Source of the DNA: a virus
Taxonomy: Duplodnaviria; Heunggongvirae; Uroviricota; Caudoviricetes
Strand: one strand, 5' to 3'
DNA: 38,838 nt
IMG/VR virus record: IMGVR_UViG_2531839130_000015
Both the position numbers and the translations under genes were made by a program. Of this stretch, positions 1,363 through 38,363 are shown in pieces; positions within the stretch are counted from its first letter, which is position 1; the number at the start of each line of letters is the position of its first letter. A model generated the notes under the pieces. That model saw nothing but the letters and a program-made list of their open reading frames with translations, was not told where the DNA came from and did no database searches.

Positions 1363-1446
1363 TTAATTTCGATTATTTTTCCCGGATGGAAAATTCTTAG
1401 AAACCGATCACATACAGCTGTATTTATTAAGGTTATCATCCGTTTC

Positions 1447-1532
1447 GCTGAAAAACATAACCCATAAAATGCTAGCTGTACCAGGAACCACCTCCTTAGC
1501 CTGTGTAATCTCCCTTACACGGGCTTATTTTT
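1447..1532 (+). ncRNA. cyaR: CyaR (RyeE) sRNA; 3' terminator hairpin overlaps the prophage att core
   Basis: Sequence gctgaaaaacataacccataaaatgctagctgtaccaggaaccacctccttagcctgtgtaatctcccttacacgggcttatttttt matches my recollection of cyaR; position directly downstream of yegQ as in E. coli K-12; ends in a stem (gcctgtgtaa/ttacacgggc) plus T-run. Ends approximate. Confidence 0.7.
1504..1530. other. Prophage attachment site core, cyaR-proximal copy
   Basis: About 27-bp sequence aatctcccttacacgggcttatttttta repeated exactly at about 38337..38363; matches the recalled P2 att core; lies between host cyaR and phage ogr. Confidence 0.8.
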
Positions 1533-1635
1533 TACGTACAACAAATTGAAATAAAAGGATTTATTTCTGGTCACGTCCACACATTGACCACATCGACAAA
1601 AAAAGCCCCTCGACTGAGGGGCTTCCTGTTTCTAA

Positions 1636-8661: not shown

Positions 8662-9414
8662 ATGAAAGGAGGCATAAATTTGGATACTAACAGTCCATTA
8701 ATTGAAGTCGAGCAGAACACTTCAGACATATATATTCCGTTGCAAGCCTGGTTCGAGGGGAGAAAATTCCTTTCACACAGATTTTCGGGCCAAAACTGTA
8801 GTGATAATCCATCAAGTGATTGGGAGGCTTGGTTATCAATACAGGAATGCTGTCCTCTCCATCAGGTCAATAGTCTTAACTGGGTCGGACTGCATGAAGC
8901 CAGGAAAAATACAGATTCATTCTTGGGGAATGTGAAGAGTGAATTTAATGGAAAGCTTCCCATTTTTATTCATGAAAAGGAGAGGGTGATAATCGAAAAA
9001 AAAATCGGCATTCCTCCCAAACCCTCATTACCAATCTATTTAATATCATGCTCTGATATGGATGATACCAATGAACACATTGTTTATGTCGGAAAAACCG
9101 TTAACTCCAAAAGGTTTATTGGCGGTCACTCGGCTGCCTTAAAGTTGCTAGATCCCAAATATAATAATATGAAAAAGAGGATATATAGAGCCACCCCATG
9201 GTTTTATGATGGAAAAGACTATATTTCACTGGATTGGATTAGTCCGACATCATTAGCTATAGAATTACTTGACTTTATAGAGTCTCATCTTATTTACAAT
9301 CTCAAGCCGGAACTCAACACATCGAAGAAAAAAAATGAAGATACACGTTATTCTTTTTATCTTCACATTCAGAACTTTTTATCAACAGGCTTTCTTAATG
9401 ATGAGTTTATTTAA
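8662..9414 (+). CDS. AT-rich cargo protein with a C-terminal GIY-YIG nuclease-like domain and an unknown N-terminal domain (about 244-250 aa)
   Basis: PIYLISCSDMDDTNEHIVYVGKTVNSKRFIGGH fits the GIY...YVG(K/S)(A/T)...R...H pattern of I-TevI/UvrC-type domains, with a downstream IESHLIYN...N segment consistent with the catalytic Glu/Asn. Strong AAGGAGG Shine-Dalgarno at about 8666..8672 suggests the real start may be TTG at about 8680 rather than ATG at 8662. Occupies the P2 Z/fun position. Confidence 0.6.
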   Translation: MKGGINLDTNSPLIEVEQNTSDIYIPLQAWFEGRKFLSHRFSGQNCSDNPSSDWEAWLSIQECCPLHQVNSLNWVGLHEARKNTDSFLGNVKSEFNGKLPIFIHEKERVIIEKKIGIPPKPSLPIYLISCSDMDDTNEHIVYVGKTVNSKRFIGGHSAALKLLDPKYNNMKKRIYRATPWFYDGKDYISLDWISPTSLAIELLDFIESHLIYNLKPELNTSKKKNEDTRYSFYLHIQNFLSTGFLNDEFI

Positions 9415-9789: not shown

Positions 9790-11325
9790 CTAATTCGGCC
9801 TTGCTTGAATAGCAGACTCTATAGCTGCTCGGAATTCCGGGGCATCAGTTCTTAATCGATAATCATCAAGGGTATTGAATATTTCTAGAAGTTCTCTACG
9901 ATAATGCAGCGGTGCTGAATTACCTTCGCCTCTAGTGGTGAAAATTAATAATGAGTCAGCGACGTCTTTTAATTTTTTATTCCTTTTCAACCTAATATAA
10001 CAAGATACAACTATATCAAGAATATGCTTTCTAGATTTCAAGGTGAGTTTATTATTAGGCATAACCAACTGCAGCATAGCACCAAGTAATTTGGTAGCCT
10101 CTTTTGAAATATAATGAAGATCGAAATTATCTATTTCTTTATTTTCTTGAGGAATCTCCTTTTCATCTATCCATTCGCATTGTTCTGCCCAATCTGTAGC
10201 GACGCTAAATAAATGACAGAGAAGGAAGTGAAAAGGTGTTTCCCATTCACCACTATATTCATCTGATTGCCTATTCATATTCTTTATAATTTTCCTTGCG
10301 AAATATGAATAGTAATGCAACCATAAATGATCCTGAAGACCCTGGTGAATACCTTCATGAACCATAATTTCAAACAGCGTGACACCTGAGTAAATAGGAC
10401 ATTTATATTTTGAAGCATCGTAATAGGAACCTAAAGACTTATTAAGTGCAGCAATAATTTTTTCATCTTCATCTAACCTCCAGTAGAGATAGTCACCGAT
10501 ATCACGGTATATTGCTAAATCAGCTGCAAACTTAGCATTGGAAAAGAAAAAATGTAATATACGGTTGTTTTTTGGAATCAATAAACGATGTCCTCGACTA
10601 ACGTTAAGATTATTTTTAAGCTCAACATATAGACGACTGTTAGGTGAACCAAGTAATGCACTGATAAAATTAGAAGTAAAGTCAGAACGAACTATTGGCT
10701 CGATCTTGATTAACTCAAGGCAGAGGGATGGGTGCGCAAGTGCAAAGTGATTGGTAAGTTCAGGTGATGAGACAATATTTAACAATGCTTCATGTGCATG
10801 TTCAGCAGCTGTCTCGCGATTAGAGATGCGGAGATTGTTAGCTATCTTATCACAAAGTCGATTCTTCACAGGTCTATCAATTATTGATATTAATTTTTCT
10901 AGTTGAGGTGCCAACAATTGTGCCAGATCGTCGTATCGTTTAGTAAGGTGCAAATTTTCCACTAACTCTAGAAATATCCCTGTTCTTCCAATTGAGAGTT
11001 TAGGGTTTTTTAAGCGAAATGAAATGTAAATAGCAACTGCGAGTGATATCAGGTATACGGCACTTGAACTATCTAATCCCCATTTCCAGGGGCCAAAGCT
11101 AAAATATAAGTCTAGTGATTTTAAAGCCGGTGCAAACACCAAATAATTGCTTAGTAAGAATGCAAACCCAACAATTACCCAATCCCACCACGCTAGGCAG
11201 AACCTTAAACGTAGTCGAGCGTTTGGCGTAATAAGGGCCCATACAGCAGCAATAACGCCCAATATGGTAAGTAGACTTGATGTATCAATTTTGGTTGGCG
11301 GTGTCATAATTTCTCTTGTAATCAT
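9790..11325 (-). CDS. AT-rich cargo membrane protein (511 aa): about three N-terminal TM helices plus a large soluble domain with an HExxHxxxxxH motif; function unknown
   Basis: Hydrophobic segments LLTILGVIAAVWALI, WVIVGFAFLLSNYLVFAPAL, AVYLISLAVAIYISF; motif VHEGIHQGLQDH resembles zinc-metallopeptidase HExxH/metzincin spacing; no P2 backbone gene of this kind recalled; convergent with the upstream GIY-YIG gene. Confidence 0.6.
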   Translation of the reverse strand: MITREIMTPPTKIDTSSLLTILGVIAAVWALITPNARLRLRFCLAWWDWVIVGFAFLLSNYLVFAPALKSLDLYFSFGPWKWGLDSSSAVYLISLAVAIYISFRLKNPKLSIGRTGIFLELVENLHLTKRYDDLAQLLAPQLEKLISIIDRPVKNRLCDKIANNLRISNRETAAEHAHEALLNIVSSPELTNHFALAHPSLCLELIKIEPIVRSDFTSNFISALLGSPNSRLYVELKNNLNVSRGHRLLIPKNNRILHFFFSNAKFAADLAIYRDIGDYLYWRLDEDEKIIAALNKSLGSYYDASKYKCPIYSGVTLFEIMVHEGIHQGLQDHLWLHYYSYFARKIIKNMNRQSDEYSGEWETPFHFLLCHLFSVATDWAEQCEWIDEKEIPQENKEIDNFDLHYISKEATKLLGAMLQLVMPNNKLTLKSRKHILDIVVSCYIRLKRNKKLKDVADSLLIFTTRGEGNSAPLHYRRELLEIFNTLDDYRLRTDAPEFRAAIESAIQARPN

Positions 11326-12212: not shown

Positions 12213-14435
12213 TTACACCTGTGCGACGTTATACCATGTGCCATTGATGTATTTTTGTATCGGTCTGAATACTGCGGGGTCATCACCATCGACTTCACCG
12301 ACAATACCAAGCCCTGTAATTACGTGCCCTGCTTTCTCATACATAACCCCTTTCTGCATAGTCTGAACAACACGAGTGCCCAGGCGAATATCCCGGACAT
12401 AGCGAGAATCTGATTCAGCTTTGGTGTATGCACCAACATCTCCCGCTGATGGTTTTCGTGTTGTGGTATAGAAATCAGACCAGCCAGATTCAAAACCATA
12501 ACCATCACGGGCTGACCTGTAAGATATACCGCCATTTTTATAATTCACACGAAACTGTACAGCCGGGCAGCTACCAGCATTTATATTAAAGTGAAGAATT
12601 AATGCAGATGCTCCCCCAATCAGAGCGTTGTATGCGCCACTGTCCCAATTCCATCCAACGGCTGTATCACCATTAACCGTATTACCTGTCTGCCGAAGTG
12701 CAAATGCACCGACATTTCTGGCATTAAGGGTAATATCTCCAGAACCATCAAAGGCAACACCTGCTATTTTCCTCGGTGTTTCGAGTTTTGAGGCTGTTGC
12801 AGCATTTCCTGAAAGGCTGGAAATAAATGGATGTGAACAGTAATAACCACGTCCATTTTTAAAATCCAGAATAGCCTGTACGTTCGTGCTTTCTGTAGCG
12901 GGATTAGTTGCCCCCCACTTATATGTCGTCTGACCGACGACATAATCCTCTGTCGGAACAATAACCGTTAGCCCTTCCTCTGCAAGAATTTGTACTGGGA
13001 AAGCTCTGGCTTCAACATAAAAAACACTACATACATCATCATCTTTCAGGCTTGTAACAATGGAATGGATTGAACGCTCATTAGTCTGATACGTCCAGAA
13101 ATAACCTGCCGCATATGAACCACGATCGGTCCAGCCTCCGGGCATAACCATGCCATTAAACTCGCAGTTATTCATTACATAATCGCCGTTATAACAACCA
13201 GTTGAAATAACGACGCGGGATGCCATTTCTCCTGAAAGGCTGGCAGCACGGCGAAAGATAACGGGATACCACTTCCCGGCAACGACATTTGCAGGGGCTG
13301 CAAACGAATACTTTCGCATTCCCTTTTTCTTATCCACTTCACCTTTGCTGTAAACATTAATGTTACTCAGGAAGCGTCCTTTATCAGGAATATCCGCACC
13401 GTTCTGATCTTTCTGAAGACGTTTTTCAGCATTGTCATAGGCAGACTTCACCGCTTTTGGTGTTGCAGCCAGCGTTTCAGAATCACTGTTGGTGGCGCTA
13501 CTGAGCTGGACAAGACCTTTTCGCGCTGTGGTGGCATCCTGTGCAGTGTATTTCCCGTTAGCAAGGTCATACGCTGTCTTAACCGCCTTTGGCGTTGCCG
13601 CAAGCGTTTCAGAATCGCTGTTGGTGGCGCTACTGAGCTGGACAAGGCCTTTTCGCGCGGTGGTGGCGTCCTGTGCAGTGTATTTCCCGTTAGCAAGGTC
13701 ATATGCTGCTTTTACCGCTTTTGGTGTTGCGGCGAGCGTTTCAGACGTGCTGTTGGTGGCACTACTGAGCTGGACAAGGCCTTTTCGCGCTGTGGTGGCG
13801 TCCTGTGCAGTGTATTTCCCGTTAGCAAGGTCATATGCTGCTTTTACCGCTTTTGGTGTTGCGGCGAGTGTTTCAGACGTGCTGTTGGTCGCACTGCTTA
13901 ACTGAGTAAAACCTTTGGCGGTCAGCGAGGCGTCCGGGTGACGTCGTGACTGTTCATGTTCTGCAATTTTGTCATCAACGTAATCCTGCGTTGCCATCAC
14001 CGTTGTGGTGTCAATGGTCAGCGCCACTGAGGCCACACTGCTGACGATGATGACCATGCGGCAGGTCTGCGAACGCCCTGAGCCTTCGGCAAGAGCTGGC
14101 TTATAACTTTCAGCCATGTTCGCCACGGCAATTAACGTTCCAGCATCATCGTACAGGCCAAGCTCACGCATCCAGAAACCGCCCACCTCCGGCGGAATAA
14201 CCAGCTCTGCGATAATATAATTACTGTTTCGTTTGTCCTGGCTGATTTTGTTCAGCGCATGTCGCCAGACTTCGTGGATAAGCCCGGTCTGTCCGGCATC
14301 CGGGACAGGCAATTTACCACCGCCATCCCCGACGGCCATCGTGGTAATGTTGACCTTCCGCCCTCCCGGCGCGGTTGCCGCTGCCAGCTTTGCTGCACCA
14401 GCAGTGGTGATAACGGTTCTGAATTTTGTGCTCAT
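12213..14435 (-). CDS. H: Tail fibre protein H (740 aa) with internal tandem repeats and an AT-rich distal receptor-binding region
   Basis: N-terminus P2 gpH-like; four tandem copies of an about 40-aa unit (…LSSATNSTSETLAATPKAVKAAYDLANGKYTAQDATTARKGLVQ…); product longer than recalled P2 gpH (about 669 aa). Confidence 0.85.
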   Translation of the reverse strand: MSTKFRTVITTAGAAKLAAATAPGGRKVNITTMAVGDGGGKLPVPDAGQTGLIHEVWRHALNKISQDKRNSNYIIAELVIPPEVGGFWMRELGLYDDAGTLIAVANMAESYKPALAEGSGRSQTCRMVIIVSSVASVALTIDTTTVMATQDYVDDKIAEHEQSRRHPDASLTAKGFTQLSSATNSTSETLAATPKAVKAAYDLANGKYTAQDATTARKGLVQLSSATNSTSETLAATPKAVKAAYDLANGKYTAQDATTARKGLVQLSSATNSDSETLAATPKAVKTAYDLANGKYTAQDATTARKGLVQLSSATNSDSETLAATPKAVKSAYDNAEKRLQKDQNGADIPDKGRFLSNINVYSKGEVDKKKGMRKYSFAAPANVVAGKWYPVIFRRAASLSGEMASRVVISTGCYNGDYVMNNCEFNGMVMPGGWTDRGSYAAGYFWTYQTNERSIHSIVTSLKDDDVCSVFYVEARAFPVQILAEEGLTVIVPTEDYVVGQTTYKWGATNPATESTNVQAILDFKNGRGYYCSHPFISSLSGNAATASKLETPRKIAGVAFDGSGDITLNARNVGAFALRQTGNTVNGDTAVGWNWDSGAYNALIGGASALILHFNINAGSCPAVQFRVNYKNGGISYRSARDGYGFESGWSDFYTTTRKPSAGDVGAYTKAESDSRYVRDIRLGTRVVQTMQKGVMYEKAGHVITGLGIVGEVDGDDPAVFRPIQKYINGTWYNVAQV
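13430..13925. repeat. Four tandem about 120-bp coding repeats inside tail fibre gene H
   Basis: Near-identical repeated DNA blocks seen directly (e.g. tggtggcgctactgagctggacaag... recurring); corresponds to the repeated peptide unit in H. Confidence 0.8.
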
Positions 14436-15881: not shown

Positions 15882-16229
15882 TCAACTCACAGGGATGGTT
15901 AATGAAAGTGGCTGGCCGGTGTCGTTGTGCTGGCCGGTTAACGTGACCGTCATTCGCCCGTCAAAACTGCGCTCAGTGGTGACGGATGACAGGGTGACGC
16001 GGGGTTCCCATTTCAGCACCGCCATGTAACAGGCGACCTTAATCTGCAACTCAAGCGCCGGGGTCTGCGGCTGGTCAATCATTGATGCCAGCAACGAGCC
16101 GTAATCACGACGCATCACCCGTGAGCCGACCGGTGTGCGCAGGATATCGCCGATACTCTGGCTGATATGCTCAAGGTCAGTGACAGTCAGGCCATCACTG
16201 CGATTCATTCCGAGATAACGCGCTGTCAT
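15882..16229 (-). CDS. W: Baseplate protein W (115 aa)
   Basis: Size and synteny with P2 gpW. Confidence 0.85.
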   Translation of the reverse strand: MTARYLGMNRSDGLTVTDLEHISQSIGDILRTPVGSRVMRRDYGSLLASMIDQPQTPALELQIKVACYMAVLKWEPRVTLSSVTTERSFDGRMTVTLTGQHNDTGQPLSLTIPVS

Positions 16230-16861
16230 AAAGGACTCCCGGTTGTGCCGCCGCTGTCGCCGGGGTGTTTATGGGTATGCAGTACCTTACCGTTTGATGA
16301 GAGTTCACCGCCGGTGTGTTCAATGTTGCCGCGCATCGTCCCGCCCTTCTGCACTTCCAGCGTGCCGGTAATCAGCCTGTTGGTGCAGACCACCTCCGGG
16401 GTGTCCAGGGTGACGCGGGTTGATGCTTTCACCATGACCACCGGCACCGTGGCAGTAACAGAATCAGAAGCCGTCACGCTGGCCGTTTTAATTCCGCTTA
16501 CCGTAAGTGCACTGGTTTCGGGTTCATATTCAATCACCGCCCCGTCAGGGAAACGGATATGCAGGGCATCCGCCGACGCAGACGGCGCGGGGTTATCGCC
16601 GGAATAAATCCCCGACAGAACGAACGCCGTGTCGAGTTCACCGCCGACGGCCAGAATCAGCACCTGTTCCCCCACGGAAGGTGCCCACCATGTGCGCGAA
16701 CGCCCGGCGCGATGGGTCAGCCACTGAAGCCAGTCGGTGCACATGCCGCCGGTCTGCACACGGCAGCGACCGGCGTTAAGGTCGGTTTCGACGACAATGC
16801 CGGTGCGTATCATGTTGCGCAGTGCGCGCGCGAGTTCCTGAATATTTGATAATGTGCTCAT
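16226..16861 (-). CDS. V: Baseplate spike protein V (211 aa); track ORF over-extended at the N-terminus
   Basis: MSTLSNIQELARALRNMIRTGIVVETDLNAGRCRVQTGGM matches recalled P2 gpV; start moved to that Met. Confidence 0.85.
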   Translation of the reverse strand: MSTLSNIQELARALRNMIRTGIVVETDLNAGRCRVQTGGMCTDWLQWLTHRAGRSRTWWAPSVGEQVLILAVGGELDTAFVLSGIYSGDNPAPSASADALHIRFPDGAVIEYEPETSALTVSGIKTASVTASDSVTATVPVVMVKASTRVTLDTPEVVCTNRLITGTLEVQKGGTMRGNIEHTGGELSSNGKVLHTHKHPGDSGGTTGSPL

Positions 16862-16944: not shown

Positions 16945-17688
16945 ATGGATAAATATCAAATCTGGGAAAATCAAAAAGACACCATCGCCCACCAAGAGTA
17001 TTTAAAAATCTCCGACACCAATTTACTTGGACATATGCATATTGCCAATTACGAAGTTGTCCAACATGAATTAAGCAAATTCAACTCCCCTGACATTGTT
17101 TCCCGTCATTCATTTAACAGAGACAAATTTAAAAAAGAACATTTAAACATATCAAGACACCTTTTCAATTATATATCTTCAGCATTATCATTTAGAGATT
17201 CAACGCGCAACCTACTTAAAACAAAAGCATTAAATATTGCCGACATTAAAATCAAATCAGAGGCATTCATCAATCATGAATTCCGAAATAATCCAGTAAT
17301 AAAATTAATGGAGGATTTAAGAAACATCCTGACGCATCAAAACATGATCGCCCCATCAATATCATCATTCATGCACCTCCAAAGAAATATAAACATGCAC
17401 GGCTTTTCATTTAAGATTGAAAGAATCTTAAACAATGACAGAACCACCAAACAAACAAAAGAATATTTAATCTCACTAAAGCAAAAAAACTTATTCATTT
17501 TACCGATAATAGAAGAATACCAATACACGACTCTTAAGTATCAACACTGGCTTTTAGCAAGTATCTACACTGTTCATCAAGATACTTACCAAGAATACTG
17601 GAATGCGAGAAAAAACATCATGAACGAATGGGGAGGAGACACTCAGCTAATACCTAAAGAGAGTGAGCTCACTTATTTAACCAGATAA
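16945..17688 (+). CDS. AT-rich cargo protein (247 aa), unknown function, with an R-N-x3-H (HEPN-like) motif
   Basis: Clean ORF with AAGGAA Shine-Dalgarno; inserted between V and S and divergent from V; motif LRNILTHQN; no confident family assignment. Confidence 0.55.
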   Translation: MDKYQIWENQKDTIAHQEYLKISDTNLLGHMHIANYEVVQHELSKFNSPDIVSRHSFNRDKFKKEHLNISRHLFNYISSALSFRDSTRNLLKTKALNIADIKIKSEAFINHEFRNNPVIKLMEDLRNILTHQNMIAPSISSFMHLQRNINMHGFSFKIERILNNDRTTKQTKEYLISLKQKNLFILPIIEEYQYTTLKYQHWLLASIYTVHQDTYQEYWNARKNIMNEWGGDTQLIPKESELTYLTR

Positions 17689-17721
17689 CAACCTGGTCAG
17701 TTCGCAAACGGAAAAAACTGG

Positions 17722-17742
17722 CCGCGACATTTTATCGCGGCC
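17722..17742 (-). terminator. Hairpin terminator between the 247-aa cargo gene and S (functions for the minus-strand O-to-S late operon)
   Basis: GCCGCGAcattttaTCGCGGC; on the minus strand the hairpin is followed by CAGTTTTTTCC. Confidence 0.5.
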
Positions 17743-17892: not shown

Positions 17893-18345
17893 CTAACGAT
17901 CGAGGTGAGCCAGGATAATCTCTTCAATCATCTGCACATCCTTACCGGTAAAGCCGAGCAAAGGACGCGCCGGATAATCAATTTTCTTACCGTCTTTCCG
18001 GGTTTCTTCCGACAGACCAAACTGATGCACGCTGGCGATTTTCGGTGACTTCCCGCCGTAAAATTCCATTGATGCCTGTTCCGGGCTGGCGCGGATATGC
18101 AAAAAACGACTGGTGATAAGTTTCGCAAACATTTTTCGCTTAACGCGACCGGTCTTTTTTCTGGCGCTCTGCTGCTGGCGTGGCGCGTAGGGTGTGCCGT
18201 CCGGGGCTTTCTGTGCCATCACCCGACGCTGCTGACTCTGACGCAGACGTTTCGCCAGTTCGGCGCTCAGTCGCCGACGCCCTGACGGTGACAGCGATTC
18301 AATCAGCCCGGTCAGCCGGTCTTCAAAACGCTTAAACTCATTCAT
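17893..18345 (-). CDS. S: Tail completion protein S (150 aa)
   Basis: Size and synteny with P2 gpS; start overlaps the stop of the R remnant. Confidence 0.85.
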   Translation of the reverse strand: MNEFKRFEDRLTGLIESLSPSGRRRLSAELAKRLRQSQQRRVMAQKAPDGTPYAPRQQQSARKKTGRVKRKMFAKLITSRFLHIRASPEQASMEFYGGKSPKIASVHQFGLSEETRKDGKKIDYPARPLLGFTGKDVQMIEEIILAHLDR

Positions 18346-18538
18346 CCCACTTACTCACCAGTTCGCCATTGATATAAAGCTCCATCGGGCGGGTGACCGG
18401 CTCCGGCGGCGGGGGTTCCGGGATATTCTTCACATGCAGTGCGCCGTCAACCTTGCGTATTACCGTGAAGGAGATCGGTGAGTAACATCGATGGAGATCG
18501 GTTCGTGTCACTTTCACAGAACCGTTTTTAAATTACCT

Positions 18539-19288
18539 TCACTGATCTCCTTCGGTCAACGGAGATTGTATTTTCCGCATTGATTCTCCTTTAAGTTCGA
18601 TCTTGATACTGCCATGAACCAGTCGATCTAGGATGGCATCCGCATGTGTGGAGTCTCCGATCATTTTGTACCAGTTTTCCACCGGCAACTGGCTCACTAC
18701 GATGATTGAGCCTCGTTGGTACATCAGATCCACTATTTCCAGCAGGTCGCTACGCTGTTCTGATGAGAGAGGTTCCAGCCCCCAGTCATCCAGAAGCAGC
18801 AGATCGCTATTATTCAGCCTGGTCAAAAGTTTGCTGTATCTTCCATCAGCATGCCCCTGATAGCACTGTTCCATCAGCGCTTTAAGGCGATAATAGTAGA
18901 CCTTGTATCCCTGTCGGCAGGCATTATGACCAAGTGCACATGCCAGGAACGTTTTACCGCTGCCGGTGGCCCCGGTCAGTAAAATATTTTGTTTCAGGGT
19001 TAACCAGTTTCCCTGACTGAGTGAACGGATGAGGGCCCTGTCCAGCCCTCTATTGTTACGATAATCCAGCTTTGATAACTCAGCATTAAGTCTGAACCGT
19101 GCATGTTTGATCAGACGCTCTGCCTTCCTGTTTTCACGGCAGGTTAGTTCTTCTGCTGTCAGTAATGACAGGCGTTCTTCGAAGCCCAGCTCCTGGTATG
19201 TGCCCGGTTGAGCAAGTTGCTTTTTAAGCGCATCACGGAAGCCGGTGAGTTTAAGTGCGGTCAGTTGTTCGTAAAGATGATTCATCAT
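18539..19288 (-). CDS. istB: IS21-family helper ATPase IstB (249 aa)
   Basis: Walker A LLTGATGSGKT and Walker B LLLLDDWG, DnaC-like AAA+ architecture typical of IstB. Confidence 0.85.
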   Translation of the reverse strand: MMNHLYEQLTALKLTGFRDALKKQLAQPGTYQELGFEERLSLLTAEELTCRENRKAERLIKHARFRLNAELSKLDYRNNRGLDRALIRSLSQGNWLTLKQNILLTGATGSGKTFLACALGHNACRQGYKVYYYRLKALMEQCYQGHADGRYSKLLTRLNNSDLLLLDDWGLEPLSSEQRSDLLEIVDLMYQRGSIIVVSQLPVENWYKMIGDSTHADAILDRLVHGSIKIELKGESMRKIQSPLTEGDQ

Positions 19289-19299
19289 TGGATCCCGTA

Positions 19300-20841
19300 T
19301 CAGTGGTAATACTCACTGCCGCGTACGTTTTCGTGTTCCATCGTGGATAACAGATCTGGTTTTGGATCCTGAACAGGTTGTTTATCCAGACCTTTTTCCA
19401 GGATCGATTTAATACCTGACAGACGCCATACCTTTGTTTTCAGAGCTCTTGCACATGCTGCATTAAGTCTGGCTTTACTGTATTTTTTATGAAGGTTCAG
19501 GAGTCCAAGGCAGAAGCGATAGCTTTGTTCCGGATGTGGACGAGAGTTCAGTATATGAAGCACATAACTATGAGTTTCACTGCCTATGTGCCCCGCCCAT
19601 TCCAGAAGACGCTCTGGCGTCCAGGTGGCATGCTGTCGATGAGCTTCAGGCATGTGCTCGTTGCGGGTACTGTAGCCATAAGTACGCTTGCGCGGGTGCA
19701 CAGCAACCTCCTGCCCCTGATTGAAGAGTCTTACCAGTTCTCCGGAGATCCATGCTTCCAGTTGCTGGCCTAACAGCGAACATGGAACCGAGTAGTAATG
19801 TTTGTCGATTTCCACGTGGTAATCGGCATGAACTCTGACTTTCTTCACCAGGGTGTAACTGTAACTGGCTTCAGGAAGAGGCTTCAGTGCGGGTTTATCA
19901 AGCTGGATGAAGAGTTCTGCACGTGAATAACCCAACTTCTGCATTATTTTGTTATTCAGTCTTTCCAGCAACTCCCGAATGCGCTGATTAAGCGATGCAA
20001 GGCTGTAGAAGATCTCATGCCTGATTCGGGCCATGATCCAGCGTTCAACAACCTGAACGCCAACTTCAGCTTTGGCTTTATCTTTCGGTTTACGTGGCCG
20101 CGCAGGCAAAACTGCGACATTATAATGCTCAAGCATCTGCTGGTAGGTAGGGTTAACGTCAGGATCATACTTACATGCCCTGGATGTGGCGCTTTTCAGA
20201 TTGTCCGGAACAACAAGTTCAGGAACGCCACCCAACCACTGGAAGCAGCGAACATGACTCATCACCCAGTCTTCAGGCTGCTGAGACCAGGTGGCCTCTG
20301 CCCATGTGTAACTTGATGCCCCGAGAACAGCTACGATGACCTGAGCAGTTCTTATTTCTCCGGTCTCAGGGTCGGTAACGCCAACGGTAGGTCCACAGTA
20401 ATCAACGAAAAGTTTTTCGCCAGCTTTATGTACCTGACGCATTGATGGTGAAGTGGTTTTGAGCCATTCACGGTACATCCGGCAGTAATGGTTATAGCTG
20501 TAAAAACCGCCTGGATTACGCTCACAGTATTCTTCCCAGAGTAGCTGCAGCGTCACGCATTTATTACGCAGTTCCCGGTGTACTGTAGCCCAGTCAGGCA
20601 GAGAGTGCTTCTTCATCTTAACCTGGGTCTGAAGGAACGCATGTTTTAGTTTTGTATCATCCCATCCTGTAGGTAAGGGCCACTGCTTTATGCCAAGTTG
20701 AGCCGCCCGATTAGCATATCTGGATACAACGGAAGGGGAGATTGCAAGACTACGACCAATTTGTCGATGGCTGAGTCCAACACCGTATTTAAGCCTAAGA
20801 ATTTCTTTAAGTTTTCTCATAGAAATTGGAACTGTTGGCAT
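19300..20841 (-). CDS. istA: IS21-family transposase IstA (513 aa)
   Basis: N-terminal HTH plus integrase-like core, directly upstream of istB in the same orientation; family recognised by recall, specific IS name not assigned. Confidence 0.8.
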   Translation of the reverse strand: MPTVPISMRKLKEILRLKYGVGLSHRQIGRSLAISPSVVSRYANRAAQLGIKQWPLPTGWDDTKLKHAFLQTQVKMKKHSLPDWATVHRELRNKCVTLQLLWEEYCERNPGGFYSYNHYCRMYREWLKTTSPSMRQVHKAGEKLFVDYCGPTVGVTDPETGEIRTAQVIVAVLGASSYTWAEATWSQQPEDWVMSHVRCFQWLGGVPELVVPDNLKSATSRACKYDPDVNPTYQQMLEHYNVAVLPARPRKPKDKAKAEVGVQVVERWIMARIRHEIFYSLASLNQRIRELLERLNNKIMQKLGYSRAELFIQLDKPALKPLPEASYSYTLVKKVRVHADYHVEIDKHYYSVPCSLLGQQLEAWISGELVRLFNQGQEVAVHPRKRTYGYSTRNEHMPEAHRQHATWTPERLLEWAGHIGSETHSYVLHILNSRPHPEQSYRFCLGLLNLHKKYSKARLNAACARALKTKVWRLSGIKSILEKGLDKQPVQDPKPDLLSTMEHENVRGSEYYH

Positions 20842-21353
20842 AGGTATCCTTTACCGGAATGGCAAAAGATACAGATCAACACACCTGTGAAGTTCCAATA
20901 ACATTGATGGAGATCACTGAATAACAAAATGAGTCAAAAGTGATCTCCATCGATGTTATTCAGCGATCTGTTCAAATGTTATTACCCGATCTCGATGGAA
21001 GTTATTGAGTGATCTCCTTTCATGAAAATACGCAAACCTCACTGACCAGCGTGCGCTCGGTCAGCATCAGGCTGATGCTGATATCAAAGCTGCTGTCATT
21101 GTTGATGTCTGCATAAAACGTGAAGCCCTTTTTCTGGCCTTCGTCGGTGGTCATGATGTCGGGCTGATTTTCCCGCAGCCACGCCAGCACCGGCACGATG
21201 AGCAGGTCAAAATCACCGGTAAAGTCGGTCACAATCACATTGAGCGTGTAACGCTTTTCGAACGACAGCGACGTCGCCAGTGTGGAGGCAATACTCCCGT
21301 TATCCACGAATATCCGCAGCATATCGGGGTTAGTTTTCAGCACCGTGACGGCA

Positions 21354-21644
21354 TCAGTCAACGCCCTGCGCAGGCTGTCGGGTTTGAGCATCGTTTTCGT
21401 CCTGACAGTGTTTAATCATTTTTACCTGGCTGGCACAGCGTGCCAGCGCGTTCTCAAGCTGCCTGATATCAGCACTTAAATCGCCGTTCGTCTGCGGGTC
21501 ACTGCCCGGCATCGGGCAAAGACTCACTTTCGGGCAGGCGTTGGCGACAATCACTGGCGTCGGTGCAGGCCGGACGCTGGTGCAACCGGCGCACAGCATC
21601 AGGCAGGTCAGCACCGTACCAGCGGCGAAAATCTTCGTTTTCAT
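21354..21644 (-). CDS. lysC: LysC, outer-membrane lipoprotein spanin (Rz1-like), embedded out of frame in lysB
   Basis: MKTKIFAAGTVLTCLMLCAGCTS lipobox signal; nested in lysB as in P2. Confidence 0.7.
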   Translation of the reverse strand: MKTKIFAAGTVLTCLMLCAGCTSVRPAPTPVIVANACPKVSLCPMPGSDPQTNGDLSADIRQLENALARCASQVKMIKHCQDENDAQTRQPAQGVD

Positions 21645-29990: not shown

Positions 29991-31313
29991 TTAGTTTGTT
30001 TTTTTAACTCCACTGTATTCCGCTATCATCCTCTCAACCGCTGGAAGCAACTCAGCAGGAACGCAAATAGACCTATCTGCCTTTCCAACATCTTTTGGCG
30101 TTTTGTAAGTACCATTATAATTAAGGACGCATTCTTTAAGAATTTCAAAAAGAGAAACAATAGGGTCCACGCCATAGCTATCAATAAACTTTCGATAGCT
30201 ATCATTATCAGATAACGATGAAATATCTCCATGAACAAACTTACACCTAAGCTCATAGATTATTCCTATTTTTGAATCAATATCAATAATTTTCGCCGCA
30301 TCTCTGCAAACACCGCCAACAATTGAATTTTTATTACCATTATTGGTTCCATACATAGCATCCAATGCTATAAATTGATTCAAAAACCTTTCACGTTTGT
30401 CATCCCTCCACCCGTGCGCTATAAAGGAAAGAGCAGACAACATCCTTTTATCAGGTGATGAAAGTATTTTTGTAAGTATCGCCAAGGCTGAATCCGTTAT
30501 ATTTAAATTATATACAGACGGAATATTCACCCGAAACTCACTTTCATGATATTTCCCGACACCAAAAGACTCAACTAGATTATTAACAGCAACTCGATTA
30601 ATCGCAAAAGGATTATCAACCGCAAGACATAAAGCTCCAAACAAACTATCAAACATTTTCACCGCTTTATCCTCTGATGAAGCATATGCCACCACCAAGC
30701 AGGATTTTGACTGTCGAAAATATTTCCCAATTGGTTTATGCCGCATATATTCATCATCATAAAAATCAACAGGAACCTTGATGTCAGTTTTGTCTTTAAT
30801 ATCAGAAAGTAATTCCACCCCTAGCCCCGGGCCATATAAAAATAAATTTTCTCTAAGCTCAAGCTTCCCATCAAAGCCAGCACACCCAAGATTATAAATA
30901 TACGGACAGGATTTTATTCGTGAAAGTATATAATACTTAAACATCTCACTAAGATTTTTTCTATGAACTTGCGTTATAATATCATCAACACAAATCTTAT
31001 CAGGATTAAGCGACAGAAAATCAGCATCAATGCGATTGAAGGCTTCAGAACAAAAACCTAACAATAATCTTTTCGCATTGTGAAGGTCACTTATACCTAA
31101 TTGGGGGCCATATGCTTTTAATAACCTACTAGCACATTTTGCAATCTCCTCATCATTATATGCAAGCCAAAAAACAAAATCTTCTAATGCTTTACCGACT
31201 TGAATACAAGGCTGCTCCTTACCATGACTATAAAAAAAACTTTTGCATAATTTGTTTATCATGCCATTAGAGAACGCAACCTTCATAGATACTTCATCCC
31301 TTAACGCACTCAT
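29991..31313 (-). CDS. AT-rich cargo protein (440 aa), unknown function, at the P2 orf91/tin/old position; possible C-terminal HEPN-like R-x4-H motif
   Basis: Clean ORF with AAGGA Shine-Dalgarno about 9 nt upstream; same orientation as gene A, between A and cos; motif ELRCKFVHGD; no Walker or other catalytic motif recognised. Confidence 0.6.
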   Translation of the reverse strand: MSALRDEVSMKVAFSNGMINKLCKSFFYSHGKEQPCIQVGKALEDFVFWLAYNDEEIAKCASRLLKAYGPQLGISDLHNAKRLLLGFCSEAFNRIDADFLSLNPDKICVDDIITQVHRKNLSEMFKYYILSRIKSCPYIYNLGCAGFDGKLELRENLFLYGPGLGVELLSDIKDKTDIKVPVDFYDDEYMRHKPIGKYFRQSKSCLVVAYASSEDKAVKMFDSLFGALCLAVDNPFAINRVAVNNLVESFGVGKYHESEFRVNIPSVYNLNITDSALAILTKILSSPDKRMLSALSFIAHGWRDDKRERFLNQFIALDAMYGTNNGNKNSIVGGVCRDAAKIIDIDSKIGIIYELRCKFVHGDISSLSDNDSYRKFIDSYGVDPIVSLFEILKECVLNYNGTYKTPKDVGKADRSICVPAELLPAVERMIAEYSGVKKTN

Positions 31314-31396: not shown

Positions 31397-33670
31397 TTAA
31401 GAAAACATCACCCAGTCGTCTTTTACAGCATAACTAAACCGCTCACCGTCATAAATTACTGTTGCCCCGCGCGCCAACGCCTCAAGCTCCCATCGCTGCG
31501 GCCTGATACCGTTCTGAGCAAGGTCAACGCGGATACGGGTAATTTGCATTCTTTCCGACCGGGTCAGTCTGGCCGATGGTGCAATTTCATGTGGTTTTAA
31601 CGGGCTTCCGTTTCTTTGCTGACGATTTGGCGTTCTCAGGCCGTGTTTTAATGCGCCCCTGAGCGCCCTAACAACCTCCGGGTCATTCCATTCTATAACC
31701 CCGTCATCAACCAGATTAAGCACTGCTGCAGCGTGCTCAGACGGTGTGGGAGCCTGTAATGAAGTATCACCACCGGTGAGCTTTCCACAGTTATTGACAG
31801 GACTCCGAGGCGCGGCGATGCCGCTTTTTAAAGTCAAAGGCTCAACGACCGGAACTTTCGGAACAATGCGCCAGTCCGTCGTTCTGGTGATATGAATATG
31901 ACGCGCGCCGAGATGCGGCGCGTAAATGCCGACCACTCTCTCGACTTCTTCCTCGTACTCGTTAACTTCATCCGACGGGCTACGGGCAACCCTGACAGTC
32001 TGACAATCGCGCGGGACATTTGCCCCACCCTGCGCGCTGATATACAACGCAAAATCACCACTGTCTGCGGCGGCGCGTGCAGCCTCGACGCGCTCGTCAA
32101 ACTCATCAGCAATGCTGACGCCGCTAGGCAATTTGCGTAGTTCACGGTAAGCCCCCATTGTCGGCAGGCCAACCGTTTTAAATTGTGGGATACGCCACGT
32201 TGACGCCCATGCGGTAACAGCCGCTGCAGTATCTTTCAGCGGCTTGCCGGTATCGTTATCGAGCTGACCATCCAGTGCATAGCCGTCGATGTTTTTTGAA
32301 ATGTATTTCGCGATATACCCCGCAGCACCGCCCCGGTTAAGATGTTTTGCCTGAAAACGGTTTCGCGCAGCTCCTCTTTCGTCGCCATCCTCTTTGAGCG
32401 CGTAGCGACGCATGATTTCAATAATCTGGTTACGCTGGCGTGGATTACAAAAAAGCATCATATGCCAGTGCGGCGTTCCGTCGTGGTGTGGCTCGACGAC
32501 TCGCAAACCGTAGACCTGTAAATCATTATCCTTGAATGCCGTGCGCATCAGGCTCCAGATACGGCAGAGATATCGCTGCGCATCCTTTGGATTAAATGCC
32601 TCATCATTCCAGCCGTGATTAAGCTGGACGGTTTTACTTTCGCCTTTTCCGACCTGACGTGTCGGGTGATACTTTGACGGCGCGGTCAGCGTGATAAACA
32701 TCCCCACATCGCCCTCTGCGGCGGCGTAACGCTCAATACCGGCAATGGTGTTCATCAGCTCCATCCGGCGAATTTCAGGATTAGAAATACTGCCCATCAC
32801 CTTACTGATAAGGTCGATGCGCTCGCCGGTTTCCCTGTTTTCAAGGTCACACGATTTAAGAAATTCCAGATTTGCCTGGCGGCGCGCACGCACATCACGA
32901 ATGGCATGTTTACTGGCATAAGGAGAACGGTCTTTATTCACCTCCCCGACAGCAATCAGTAACGCCTCATGCCAGCGCATACGCTGGCCTTTAAGCTGAC
33001 TAATCCACCACTCATCGTTAAACAGGCGGGCAATGGCAGAATATGCCTGCCTCGTGGTCATCTGTCCTTTACGGTATTTTTTCCAGAAAAGCGGGGAAAT
33101 ATTGAAAGCACGTGCAGCGCCAGCAACATGACCATACAGATGCGCCTGCGCCTCATCTGTAAACAGCGATTCTTTCTCGCCATGTGCATCAACCCAGGCA
33201 TCGCAGAGTTCCTCATACATCATGAAAAGCTGCGATGAAATACGGGCGGCAAACTTTTTCAGCTCCTTGTCATTCATCCCCGGCAGACGCGCATAATGGT
33301 CACGCTCTGCCAGAAACAGCAACGACGCGTCGGTGTTCATTTCATGGCGCTGATTCACGCGCTCAATACGCGGCCATAAACGGCGCTGAAAAGTGGATGT
33401 GAGGAAATAAAACCCGTGTAGCGGGCTTTTATTGCGCCGTATGTAGTCATAACGTGAAGTAAACAGCGAGCGCAAAAAGTAAGGCAGGCGGTTAATCGTG
33501 GATAAAACACCTTGCACCTGACGCATCTCGTCACGTGTAAGGGGTCTTTCGCGCCCGACAGCCTCGCGTGGCGTATTCCATGCATAAGCACCGGTAAACG
33601 CCTTACCGGTGCCTGCGGCAAACGCAGACGGAGGTACGCAGGTGTATTGCTCCTGGAAAGAATGACTCAT
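31397..33670 (-). CDS. A: Replication initiation endonuclease A (757 aa)
   Basis: Sequence matches recalled P2 gpA (rolling-circle initiator, about 761 aa). Confidence 0.9.
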   Translation of the reverse strand: MSHSFQEQYTCVPPSAFAAGTGKAFTGAYAWNTPREAVGRERPLTRDEMRQVQGVLSTINRLPYFLRSLFTSRYDYIRRNKSPLHGFYFLTSTFQRRLWPRIERVNQRHEMNTDASLLFLAERDHYARLPGMNDKELKKFAARISSQLFMMYEELCDAWVDAHGEKESLFTDEAQAHLYGHVAGAARAFNISPLFWKKYRKGQMTTRQAYSAIARLFNDEWWISQLKGQRMRWHEALLIAVGEVNKDRSPYASKHAIRDVRARRQANLEFLKSCDLENRETGERIDLISKVMGSISNPEIRRMELMNTIAGIERYAAAEGDVGMFITLTAPSKYHPTRQVGKGESKTVQLNHGWNDEAFNPKDAQRYLCRIWSLMRTAFKDNDLQVYGLRVVEPHHDGTPHWHMMLFCNPRQRNQIIEIMRRYALKEDGDERGAARNRFQAKHLNRGGAAGYIAKYISKNIDGYALDGQLDNDTGKPLKDTAAAVTAWASTWRIPQFKTVGLPTMGAYRELRKLPSGVSIADEFDERVEAARAAADSGDFALYISAQGGANVPRDCQTVRVARSPSDEVNEYEEEVERVVGIYAPHLGARHIHITRTTDWRIVPKVPVVEPLTLKSGIAAPRSPVNNCGKLTGGDTSLQAPTPSEHAAAVLNLVDDGVIEWNDPEVVRALRGALKHGLRTPNRQQRNGSPLKPHEIAPSARLTRSERMQITRIRVDLAQNGIRPQRWELEALARGATVIYDGERFSYAVKDDWVMFS

Positions 33671-34674
33671 TCACATACACCGGCATAGACACTACTGCAA
33701 ACGGCTTTATCATTCGCCGAAGCCAGTAAATCAAACTGAGTACCCCCACGCGTTGTCATTGTCCAGTCATGGTAGGTTTCAATTCCGTATGCCTCGACTG
33801 TTACAACCTCAATACGACGTTCTGCGCGTAACGGATCATGTGTGGATGGGAAAAAAGTGGAATTTCCCCGACGGGAGCACGACGCAACCAGTCGTTCCCA
33901 TTCAGCAACCCGCTTTATTTCCTCCGGCCACCGGCGAAAAATTTCTGCCAGTTCAGATTTACGGACATGAATACATGGCATACAACCAACACGGCCACAC
34001 CCCTGCTGATATAACGGATTTGGCTTAATGTCATGTCTTCTGGCTATTGCAAATACATCTTCATGCTTCCAGTGCAAAATCGGGCGATATACATGCAATC
34101 CGGGGGTGTTGTCTGCATCCTCTTCCCAGACAGGTAAAGCTGCGCGTGATGGCGATTCCTGAGCACGCACTCCCTGCCAGCTAATCACTTCCTCAAATTC
34201 ATTGAGTAAAGGCAGGATTACCTGAGAACGCACGGGTTCATGTTTCAGTTCAAATGTGCAAAATCTGGCTTTGGTTGATGGGAAACGCCCCTTCCACAGA
34301 CACAAATCAAGAAACGGGATACCCGTTGGTTTGAGAATTTCCAGCGCACAACTGATGCGCTGGTGCGCTTCTTCTTCCGACATTCCACAATCGTTAACCA
34401 ACAAATCAGGCCATTTGGTCTGGATAAACTTGCGCTTTGATTCAATCCGGCAGGAAAAATCAGCCCTGACCCTTTTAATTGGGCCAAGCCGTTTTTCCAG
34501 ATAATCCAGATATTTCATTGTCTGTGGATGTTCATGTCCCGTATCAGCAAAAACCGGCAATATGGGTACATTTTCTTCAATAGCGACAAGCCACTGAGCA
34601 AGGCTGTCCTTTCCACCTGAAACAAAAATAACATTGATGGTATTTTCAGTATGGCAACGAGCATCAGTAATCAT
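33667..34674 (-). CDS. PAPS-reductase-like PP-loop ATP pyrophosphatase family protein (335 aa) with a C-terminal Cys cluster
   Basis: PP-loop motif VIFVSGGKDSLA; cysteine cluster GCGRVGCMPC; stop overlaps the ATG of gene A. Confidence 0.7.
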   Translation of the reverse strand: MITDARCHTENTINVIFVSGGKDSLAQWLVAIEENVPILPVFADTGHEHPQTMKYLDYLEKRLGPIKRVRADFSCRIESKRKFIQTKWPDLLVNDCGMSEEEAHQRISCALEILKPTGIPFLDLCLWKGRFPSTKARFCTFELKHEPVRSQVILPLLNEFEEVISWQGVRAQESPSRAALPVWEEDADNTPGLHVYRPILHWKHEDVFAIARRHDIKPNPLYQQGCGRVGCMPCIHVRKSELAEIFRRWPEEIKRVAEWERLVASCSRRGNSTFFPSTHDPLRAERRIEVVTVEAYGIETYHDWTMTTRGGTQFDLLASANDKAVCSSVYAGVCE

Positions 34675-38256: not shown

Positions 38257-38336
38257 CGTTTAAGGGCTTTCAGTGGTAATTTATGCCGCTCAAACCCGCA
38301 TTGTACCGTTGAAAGCCCCTACTGGTGACACCCTAA

Positions 38337-38363
38337 ATCTCCCTTACACGGGCTTATTTTTTA
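38337..38363. other. Prophage attachment site core, int-proximal copy
   Basis: Exact second copy of aatctcccttacacgggcttatttttta. Confidence 0.8.

What the first reader, a model, noticed from the sequence alone, without database searches (positions are those of the whole stretch)
18338..21391. IS21-family insertion in tail completion gene R implies a tail-defective prophage that keeps its cargo
The R reading frame is cleanly split by a 2.58-kb istA/istB element flanked by a 5-bp AACCT duplication; removing the IS and one AACCT copy restores an intact R of about 155 aa. The IS-derived stop truncates R. The prophage therefore probably cannot make infectious tails, while its immunity, integrase and cargo genes look intact. 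That pattern is consistent with a domesticated prophage retained for its accessory functions. The intact TSD suggests a recent insertion.
Basis: seen in the sequence. Interest (0 to 1): 0.55.

Follow-up and report, generated by a model that had tools for sequence, protein, structure and literature searches.

The report
ISEc12 insertion splits P2 prophage gene R
A common E. coli jumping gene (ISEc12) has recently landed in the tail-terminator gene R of an otherwise complete P2 prophage, which most likely stops it making infectious particles; this is an ordinary way for prophages to break and gives no sign that the prophage is being kept for its cargo.

Summary
A 2,581-bp IS21-family element (18454-21034; istA and istB on the minus strand) sits in gene R of a P2 prophage, flanked by a perfect 5-bp AACCT duplication. 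Removing it and one AACCT copy restores a 155-aa gpR that is 98.3% identical in DNA to P2 R. The element is ISEc12, which has 100%-identical copies in many E. coli genomes.

The truncated R keeps residues 1-119. It loses both segments (123-125 and 142-145) that a 2026 cryo-EM study shows tie the tail terminator to the head adaptor and to the sheath, so a tail or head-joining defect is well founded.

The 'domesticated, kept for cargo' reading is not supported:
- Every other P2 gene is full length, including lysis, replication, int, cox and C, and both att cores are perfect.
- The junctions are absent from 5,426 complete E. coli genomes. The exact truncated product was found only in one draft assembly (GCA_000356665.2) and two sequencing runs.
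- A prophage with a 99.97%-identical left arm in strain 504838 has R intact.

This is a single, recent, private hit. ISEc12 insertions in P2-like prophages are in fact common: 105 and 39 genomes in two searches, spread over many genes. That makes the case ordinary, although the size of this association may merit its own study.

The parts
1507..1533 (.). P2 att core copy on the ogr side (prophage end next to host yegQ/trhP)
   Evidence: Exact 27-bp match to the P2 attP core. The flanking 453-aa ORF at 1-1362 is TrhP/YegQ.
17720..17742 (-). Terminator-like hairpin downstream of S, at the position of the P2 O-operon terminator
   Evidence: 10-bp stem followed by a T run. P2 annotates a putative terminator right after S.
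17893..18345 (-). Gene S (tail completion), intact at 150 aa. Its ATG overlaps the R stop codon.
   Evidence: 150/150 aa aligned at 97.3% to P2 gpS. PHROG 26.
18338..18453 (-). 3' fragment of R (codons 120-155 plus stop, preceded by the duplicated AGGTT)
   Evidence: tblastn to P2 gpR residues 114-155; reconstruction.
18449..18453 (.). Target-site duplication copy 1 (AACCT)
   Evidence: A single copy is present at the empty site of relatives.
18454..21034 (-). ISEc12 (IS21 family), 2,581 bp, complete
   Evidence: 100% identity over the full length to annotated ISEc12 copies. Terminal inverted repeats TGCGTATT...AATACGCA.
18539..19288 (-). istB, AAA+ helper ATPase, 249 aa
   Evidence: NCBIfam IS21_help_AAA E 2e-80; Pfam IstB_IS21.
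19300..20841 (-). istA, DDE transposase, 513 aa
   Evidence: NCBIfam transpos_IS21 E 9e-92; Pfam rve plus Mu-transpos_C_2.
21035..21039 (.). Target-site duplication copy 2 (AACCT)
21020..21391 (-). Truncated R ORF: native codons 1-119 (21035-21391), then CVFS and a stop read from the IS end
   Evidence: The exact 123-aa product is also called in GCA_000356665.2 and two SRA assemblies.
38336..38362 (.). P2 att core copy on the int side (other prophage end)
   Evidence: Exact 27-bp match to the P2 attP core.

Best explanation
A resident copy of ISEc12 (IS21 family) transposed into codon 118/119 of gene R of a complete P2-type prophage integrated next to yegQ/trhP in E. coli, duplicating 5 bp (shown).

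The gene now encodes residues 1-119 of the tail terminator plus four IS-coded residues (shown). It therefore lacks both beta-strand 'handshake' segments that join the terminator to the head-to-tail adaptor gpL and to the top sheath ring. On derepression the prophage should still excise, replicate, package DNA and lyse the cell. Its tails, however, cannot be properly capped or joined to heads, so few or no infectious P2 particles are released, and no particles of a dependent P4 satellite either (inferred).

Gene S downstream may also be under-expressed, because its start overlaps the R stop and now lies behind 2.6 kb of IS (inferred).

The event is recent, private to one small group of isolates, and most simply an incidental IS hit of a kind that is frequent in P2-like prophages. 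It is not evidence of selection to keep the cargo.
For: Anatomy and restoration of R.

IS identity.

R is essential and lies in the O operon with S: P2 GenBank annotation. gpR is the hexameric tail terminator, contacting gpL by L123-V125 and sheath gpFI by E142-I145: preprint 10.64898/2026.09.14.750843. These residues map exactly onto the lost part (sequence).

Rest of the prophage is intact: every other P2 gene with a match, from Q to ogr and from int to A, is full length or nearly so, and the att cores are perfect.

Recency and privacy:
- Neither junction is contiguous in any of 5,426 complete E. coli genomes.
- The left-junction 31-mer is absent from GTDB species representatives and JGI metagenomes.
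- The exact product is found only in GCA_000356665.2 and two runs.
- Strain 504838 carries the same prophage left arm at the same site, with 5 mismatches in about 17 kb, and has an uninterrupted R.
- R reaches at least 80% coverage in one place in 1,557 of the 1,566 genomes that have it.

Ordinariness: ISEc12 lies in or beside P2-like late modules in 105 genomes (same orientation) and 39 genomes (opposite orientation). Mapped sites fall in Q, the P/Q junction, O, R, S, J, H, A and cargo loci.
Against: No experiment shows loss of infectivity.

Only this window was available, so a second P2-like prophage supplying R in trans cannot be excluded; up to 3 R homologues per genome occur elsewhere.

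No strong terminator was found inside the IS on the R strand, so the polar effect on S is uncertain.

A 57-59-aa ORF reading out of the IS end into the R 3' fragment exists, so fragment complementation cannot be formally ruled out.
Confidence: 0.85

Rival explanations
1. Domesticated prophage: the host benefits from the cargo (unknown-function genes at the orf30, Z/fun and tin/old loci, and a PAPS-reductase-like gene). The prophage has been grounded by losing tail function while selection keeps the immunity, integrase and cargo genes.
For: The cargo ORFs are full length against their PHROG profiles and lie at loci where P2 itself carries its non-essential exclusion and conversion genes. One of these, the gpA-gpQ locus, was shown to be a defence hotspot (PMC9122126). 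Defective P2-like elements with conserved defence genes have been described, and their domestication raised as an open question (PMC13586616).
Against: There is one lesion only. Lysis, replication, packaging and excision functions are as intact as the cargo, so nothing shows differential retention, and the prophage can still kill its host. The insertion is private and recent. None of the cargo proteins matches a known defence family in PADLOC, except for weak SspD/DndC-like similarity of the PAPS-reductase-like protein.
Confidence: 0.08
2. The prophage is still productive. R is supplied in trans by another P2-like prophage in the same genome, or the two R fragments (1-119 and an IS-initiated C-terminal peptide) reassemble, so infectious particles are still made.
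For: Some E. coli genomes hold 2-3 R homologues. An ORF of 57-59 aa reads from the IS end in frame into R codons 119-155.
Against: The median number of R copies per genome that has any is 1. No promoter-like site was found at the IS end facing R/S. I did not check for a ribosome-binding site at the GTG start of that ORF. Even with trans-complementation, progeny genomes would still carry the broken R and would be 2.6 kb longer than the IS-free prophage.
Confidence: 0.1
3. Assembly artefact: a repeat-collapsed IS copy was wrongly placed in R by the assembler.
For: The source is a draft assembly, ISEc12 is multi-copy in E. coli, and the istB-side junction was recovered only from that assembly.
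Against: There is a perfect 5-bp duplication of a sequence present once at the empty site. The istA-side junction was recovered independently in two Logan assemblies of separate runs. One of these runs through the whole IS to within 3 nt of its far end.
Confidence: 0.02
4. Targeted rather than incidental: ISEc12 has a real preference for P2-like phage DNA, or insertions there are positively selected. R::ISEc12 would then be one instance of a systematic IS-driven inactivation of P2-like prophages.
For: 105 and 39 genomes carry ISEc12 in or beside P2-like late modules, against a rough chance expectation of a few. Independent hits re-use sites: S at P2 coordinate 9257 in two alleles with allele-specific duplications, and the P/Q junction at 1221 and 1222 with 5- and 6-bp duplications. 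None of the P2-like phage records carries ISEc12: the five ISEc12 hits among phage records are four PhiR12 phages of 52-54 kb and a 64-nt fragment in vB_EcoS-783R2, while 76 records hold R.
Against: The counts are not corrected for clonal inheritance or for the general tolerance of prophage DNA to insertions. Sites are spread over the whole prophage, with no R-specific hotspot.
Confidence: 0.3

Closest known systems
ISEc12 (IS21 family), for example the copy that split tssM in E. coli ST131 clade C
   Same: Same element (copies with 0-1 mismatch over the full 2,581 bp), the same 5-bp duplication length, and the same outcome: a clean split of a contractile-machine gene giving a presumed null (PMC10711316).
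   Different: The target here is a prophage tail gene, not a chromosomal T6SS gene. The tssM insertion is fixed in a global lineage, whereas this one is private to one draft genome and two sequencing runs.
Bacteriophage P2 gene R (gpR, tail terminator / tail completion)
   Same: Restored sequence of 155 aa with 2 aa differences from gpR; same lysC-R-S synteny with overlapping stop and start codons; Pfam PF06891.
   Different: Interrupted after codon 119, so the gpL-binding (123-125) and sheath-binding (142-145) strands are not made as part of the protein.
Other ISEc12-disrupted P2-like prophages in E. coli (GN04171 R::ISEc12; NR2550, APEC E19025, S9, OHT76-1 and VE-V10-F S::ISEc12; others in O, Q, J, H, A)
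   Same: Same IS, same class of prophage, and 5-8-bp duplications. R or its operon partner S is hit.
   Different: Different insertion coordinates and both orientations. None shares this junction.
Defective or cryptic P2 remnants and 'domesticated' defective prophages
   Same: A P2-type element at the yegQ site that can no longer complete its life cycle. Defective P2-like elements with conserved defence genes are documented (PMC13586616).
   Different: Those are multiply decayed or deleted. This one has a single lesion and a full, otherwise P2-identical gene set.

Membership tests
IS21 family / ISEc12 | Two consecutive co-oriented genes: istA (HTH plus DDE transposase) and istB (AAA+ helper ATPase) | tested here: met
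   NCBIfam transpos_IS21 at 307.7 bits (cut-off 160) and IS21_help_AAA at 270 bits (cut-off 200); Pfam rve, Mu-transpos_C_2 and IstB_IS21.
IS21 family / ISEc12 | Imperfect terminal inverted repeats (5'-TG...CA-3') with repeated internal motifs at both ends | tested here: met
   TGCGTATT...AATACGCA; several GGAGATC-containing repeats at 18467-18502 and 20897-21024.
IS21 family / ISEc12 | Short direct target duplication (4-8 bp) | tested here: met
   AACCT on both sides. 18 other copies mapped here have 5-8-bp duplications.
IS21 family / ISEc12 | Nucleotide identity to the named element | tested here: met
   100% over 2,581 bp to copies RefSeq annotates as the ISEc12 family. ISfinder itself was not available.
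P2 gpR tail terminator (Pfam PF06891, PHROG 65) | Profile match and P2 synteny (lysC-R-S) | tested here: met
   Restored protein: PF06891 E 1.4e-45, PHROG 65 E 9e-71, 98.3% nt identity to P2 R.
P2 gpR tail terminator (Pfam PF06891, PHROG 65) | Uninterrupted ORF that includes the adaptor (123-125) and sheath (142-145) handshake strands | tested here: not met
   The ORF ends after residue 119 plus 4 foreign residues.
Peduovirus P2-type prophage | Full P2 gene order, P2-type int/C/cox, and att core repeats at both ends | tested here: met
   39 P2 proteins matched in P2 order; int 99.7%, C 99%, cox 100%. Two exact 27-bp att cores.
Domesticated / grounded prophage retained for cargo | Several inactivating lesions or deletions in lytic functions, with the accessory genes selectively conserved | tested here: not met
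   One lesion only; all the other P2 genes that have a counterpart here are intact.
Domesticated / grounded prophage retained for cargo | The defective allele is vertically maintained across a lineage | tested here: not met
   Junctions absent from 5,426 complete genomes, GTDB representatives and JGI metagenomes. The product is seen only in one NCBI assembly and two runs.
Domesticated / grounded prophage retained for cargo | Demonstrated benefit of the cargo to the host | not testable with these tools
   The cargo proteins match only unknown-function PHROGs and have no significant Pfam match (the best were sub-threshold hits to GIY-YIG and other families). They have no PADLOC match except the PAPS-reductase-like protein.

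The most novel reading that the evidence does not exclude
ISEc12 is disproportionately found inside P2-like prophages of E. coli: roughly 9% of genomes with a P2-like R gene in two partial searches, about 25-30 times a naive genome-wide expectation, with some exact sites hit independently more than once. It is absent from the P2-like phage records searched. If this reflects a real target preference of the IstA/IstB machinery, or selection, then ISEc12 would be a major and so far undescribed route by which E. coli populations ground P2-like prophages, and thereby also strand the P4-like satellites that depend on them. The R insertion in this window would be one fresh example.
Probability: 0.3. 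Interest if true: 0.45.

Novelty: already known. Interest (0 to 1): 0.15.

Why it matters
For this genome, it means the P2 prophage next to yegQ should be annotated as defective in tail termination, though not as cryptic. It probably cannot spread or serve as a P4 helper, yet it still carries functional lysis, immunity and cargo genes.

More generally it is a textbook snapshot of the first step of prophage decay, caught with its near-identical intact counterpart (strain 504838). That counterpart has its own independent nonsense mutation in gene V.

The only wider point is the unexpectedly high frequency of ISEc12 in P2-like prophages. This would need a proper census before anything is claimed.

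Tried and rejected
1. An R/S-specific ISEc12 hotspot. Chimeric flank-plus-IS-end queries found 2 co-oriented and 6 opposite-oriented insertions in R/S of other genomes, which looked like clustering. Wider queries and mapping of 19 copies showed hits all over the prophage: Q, P/Q, O, R, S, J, H, A and cargo. The R/S-specific idea was dropped.

2. An apparent 'always co-oriented with the late operon' pattern. This was an ascertainment artefact of strand-restricted joining of BLAST pieces, and the opposite-orientation queries removed it.

3. A solved structure of gpR by sequence: no PDB hit. The structural argument rests on the 2026 preprint.

4. Naming the cargo: PADLOC, Pfam and NCBIfam gave nothing significant for the 247-, 250-, 511- and 440-aa proteins.

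5. An exact left-junction 31-mer in GTDB species representatives and JGI metagenomes: no match.

6. A literature link between ISEc12 and prophages or P2: no paper making the link appeared in the held library, judged from titles and abstracts.

7. A statement in the papers read that P2 is non-inducible: not found. That point is marked as my own knowledge.

8. An internal terminator or an outward promoter in the IS that would settle expression of S: none convincing.
Full report
**What is there**

The region 18338-21391 is gene R of a P2-type prophage, on the minus strand, interrupted by a 2,581-bp insertion sequence. The IS runs from 18454 (TGCGTATT...) to 21034 (...AATACGCA). It is flanked by AACCT at 18449-18453 and 21035-21039.

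The IS carries istA (19300-20841, 513 aa) and istB (18539-19288, 249 aa) in the same direction as R. Both score far above the NCBIfam cut-offs for IS21 transposase and the IstB helper ATPase, with the matching Pfam domains. The ends are imperfect inverted repeats with several GGAGATC-type internal repeats.

The element has 100%-identical copies that RefSeq annotates as ISEc12, and it is present in 1,909 of 5,426 complete E. coli genomes. Full-length copies with one mismatch, at unrelated sites, confirm the exact ends.

**Restoring R**

Deleting the IS and one AACCT gives a 468-nt ORF of 155 aa. It differs from P2 gpR at two residues and is 98.3% identical in DNA. It matches Pfam P2_Phage_GpR and PHROG 65, 'tail terminator'.

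The interrupted gene encodes residues 1-119, then Cys-Val-Phe-Ser and a stop codon from the IS end. The target AGGTT (R nt 353-357) exists as a natural allele in other prophages such as NR2550, while P2 and strain 504838 have AGGTG. This is consistent with a true duplication of the ancestral site.

**Is it real?**

The exact 123-aa truncated product is called in NCBI assembly GCA_000356665.2. Contig AQER01000011.1 is 100% identical to the window over 12.4 kb and is probably the source. The same product is called in two independent Logan assemblies of runs SRR446929 and SRR446928, whose contigs cross the istA-side junction. The istB-side junction was recovered only from the NCBI assembly. Together with the perfect duplication, an assembly artefact is very unlikely.

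**Context**

The window holds a whole P2 prophage between two exact 27-bp copies of the P2 att core, at 1507-1533 and 38336-38362. It lies next to host yegQ/trhP.

Of the 42 P2 proteins I compared, 39 have a match in P2 order. The three without a match were orf30, fun(Z) and orf91 among the first forty, and tin and old also gave none; the 39 that matched run from Q to ogr and from int to A.
- All matched genes except R are full length or nearly so: orf83 aligns over 86 of 91 residues and A over 746 of 761.
- Identity is 91-100% aa, except for the mosaic tail fibre H, which is still a single open 740-aa ORF.
- Int is 99.7% identical, C 99% and Cox 100%.

The P2 morons orf30, fun/Z, tin, old and orf91 are replaced by other genes:
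- a 247-aa ORF at 16945-17688;
- 250-aa and 511-aa ORFs at 8662-9414 and 9790-11325;
- a 440-aa ORF at 29991-31313;
- a PAPS-reductase-like ORF at 33667-34674.

All are full length against their PHROG profiles but of unknown function.

**Consequence for the phage**

The P2 record annotates R and S as essential tail-completion genes at the end of the O operon. A 2026 cryo-EM preprint (10.64898/2026.09.14.750843) shows gpR as the hexameric tail terminator. It binds the head-to-tail adaptor gpL through L123-V125, and it anchors the top sheath subunits through a beta-strand at E142-I145.

Both segments are present in the restored sequence at those positions (ALHV and ELYI), and both lie beyond the break at residue 119. 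The truncated protein therefore cannot make either contact, so loss of infectious particle formation is a well-founded inference, though it is not shown.

S starts inside the R stop codon (ATGAATGA) and now lies behind the IS. No convincing terminator or outward promoter was found in the IS, so the degree of polarity is open.

**Why 'domesticated for cargo' does not follow**

Domestication would predict differential decay and persistence in a lineage. Neither is seen.
- R is the only lesion. Lysis, replication, packaging and excision functions are as intact as the cargo, so the prophage can presumably still kill its host.
- Neither junction occurs contiguously in any of 5,426 complete E. coli genomes. 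The left-junction 31-mer is absent from GTDB species representatives and JGI metagenomes.
- Strain 504838 has the same prophage at the same site. Its left arm differs from the window at 5 positions in about 17 kb, and its R is uninterrupted. That prophage has its own independent lesion, W58* in gene V. This fits random, independent decay.
- R reaches at least 80% coverage in one place in 1,557 of the 1,566 genomes that carry it.

The general idea that defective P2-like elements may stabilise defence genes is already in the literature as an open question (PMC13586616). The gpA-gpQ cargo locus is a known defence hotspot (PMC9122126). This case neither adds to nor tests that idea.

**How ordinary is it?**

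Looking for related events, I first found ISEc12 in R at another site (GN04171, duplication CCGGT) and in S (NR2550). I then found six more S insertions in the opposite orientation.

Wider queries showed ISEc12 in or beside the P2-like S-Q module in 105 genomes in one orientation. In a smaller window, 39 genomes had it in the other orientation.

Mapping 19 copies onto P2 coordinates gave sites in Q, the P/Q junction, O, R, S, J, H, A and cos-proximal or cargo DNA, all with 5-8-bp duplications. R is therefore not a special target.

The overall frequency is striking, though. The two searches together give about 3% of all chromosomal ISEc12 places, against about 0.1% of the DNA. This figure is not corrected for clonality or for the general tolerance of prophage DNA to insertions.

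Some sites were hit independently. S at P2 coordinate 9257 was hit in two alleles, with allele-specific duplications CGGGT and CGGTT. The P/Q junction was hit at 1221 and 1222, with 5- and 6-bp duplications. No P2-like phage record carries ISEc12, and I found no paper linking ISEc12 with P2. I record this as a lead, not a result.

**Comparison with known cases**

The closest precedent is ISEc12 splitting tssM of the ST131 type VI secretion system, also with a 5-bp duplication (PMC10711316). IS-inactivated prophage structural genes are commonplace. Nothing here departs from known IS21-family or P2 biology, so I rate it 'already known', with low interest.

**Practical note**

Mitomycin C is a poor test, because P2-type prophages are classically not SOS-inducible (my own knowledge; searches did not yield a citable statement). 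The repressor here is P2 C. Derepression through P4 or Cox, EM of lysates and complementation with R (with or without S) would be decisive.

Noticed in passing
window 18440-18453 (left IS flank) versus L004 (NZ_CP025856.1, strain 504838): Similarity to the 504838 prophage switches from near-identity (5 mismatches between the att core and 18439) to about 2.2% divergence at window 18440. That is 14 bp from the IS junction, and the divergence continues on the other side of the IS. A recombination tract ending against the 2.6-kb heterology is one explanation and chance is another. If the former is true, the IS predates the acquisition of the left arm.
   Followed up: partly
L004 31226-31861 (strain 504838), homologous to window 16229-16861: The near-identical sister prophage has an intact R but a nonsense codon (W58*) in baseplate/spike gene V. 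The window's V is open. These are two independent single hits in tail genes of the same prophage type.
   Followed up: yes
E. coli complete genomes; loci L002, L003, L010-L025: ISEc12 is very frequent in or next to P2-like prophages: 105 genomes co-oriented with the S-Q module and 39 in the opposite orientation in a smaller window. Insertions occur in many genes, and some exact sites were re-used independently. None of the P2-like phage records carries it. The counts are not corrected for clonality, and no control region was tested.
   Followed up: partly
window 8662-9414 (+), 9790-11325 (-), 16945-17688 (+), 29991-31313 (-): Cargo ORFs replace P2 fun/Z, orf30 and tin/old at their usual loci. 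They match only unknown-function PHROGs, with no PADLOC hit and no significant Pfam hit. The 250-aa protein has a sub-threshold GIY-YIG hint. A feature annotated as a HEPN-domain protein lies under the right-arm match in strain KE50, but I did not confirm that it corresponds to the 440-aa ORF.
   Followed up: partly
window 33667-34674 (-): A 335-aa PAPS-reductase-domain protein lies between orf83 and A; P2 has no gene there. It has weak similarity to SspD, DndC and BrxP in PADLOC and matches PHROG 424.
   Followed up: no
window 12213-14435 (-), internal repeats at 13428-13895: Tail fibre gene H is mosaic relative to P2. The N-terminal 251 aa are 96% identical and the C-terminus only 57%. The ORF is 740 aa against 669 in P2, and it holds tandem internal repeats of about 132 nt.
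   Followed up: no
window 18338-18517 (-): A 57-59-aa ORF starts inside the istB-distal IS end and reads in frame into R codons 119-155, ending at the stop codon that overlaps the S start. It is called as a gene in the NCBI assembly. It could in principle support translational coupling to S.
   Followed up: no
window 1-1421 versus L004: Host gene yegQ/trhP differs from strain 504838 at 20 positions within its 1,362 bp, partly clustered at 327-351 and 813-945. The adjacent prophage arm is almost identical. The two hosts are therefore not close relatives, and the prophage arm was shared horizontally.
   Followed up: no
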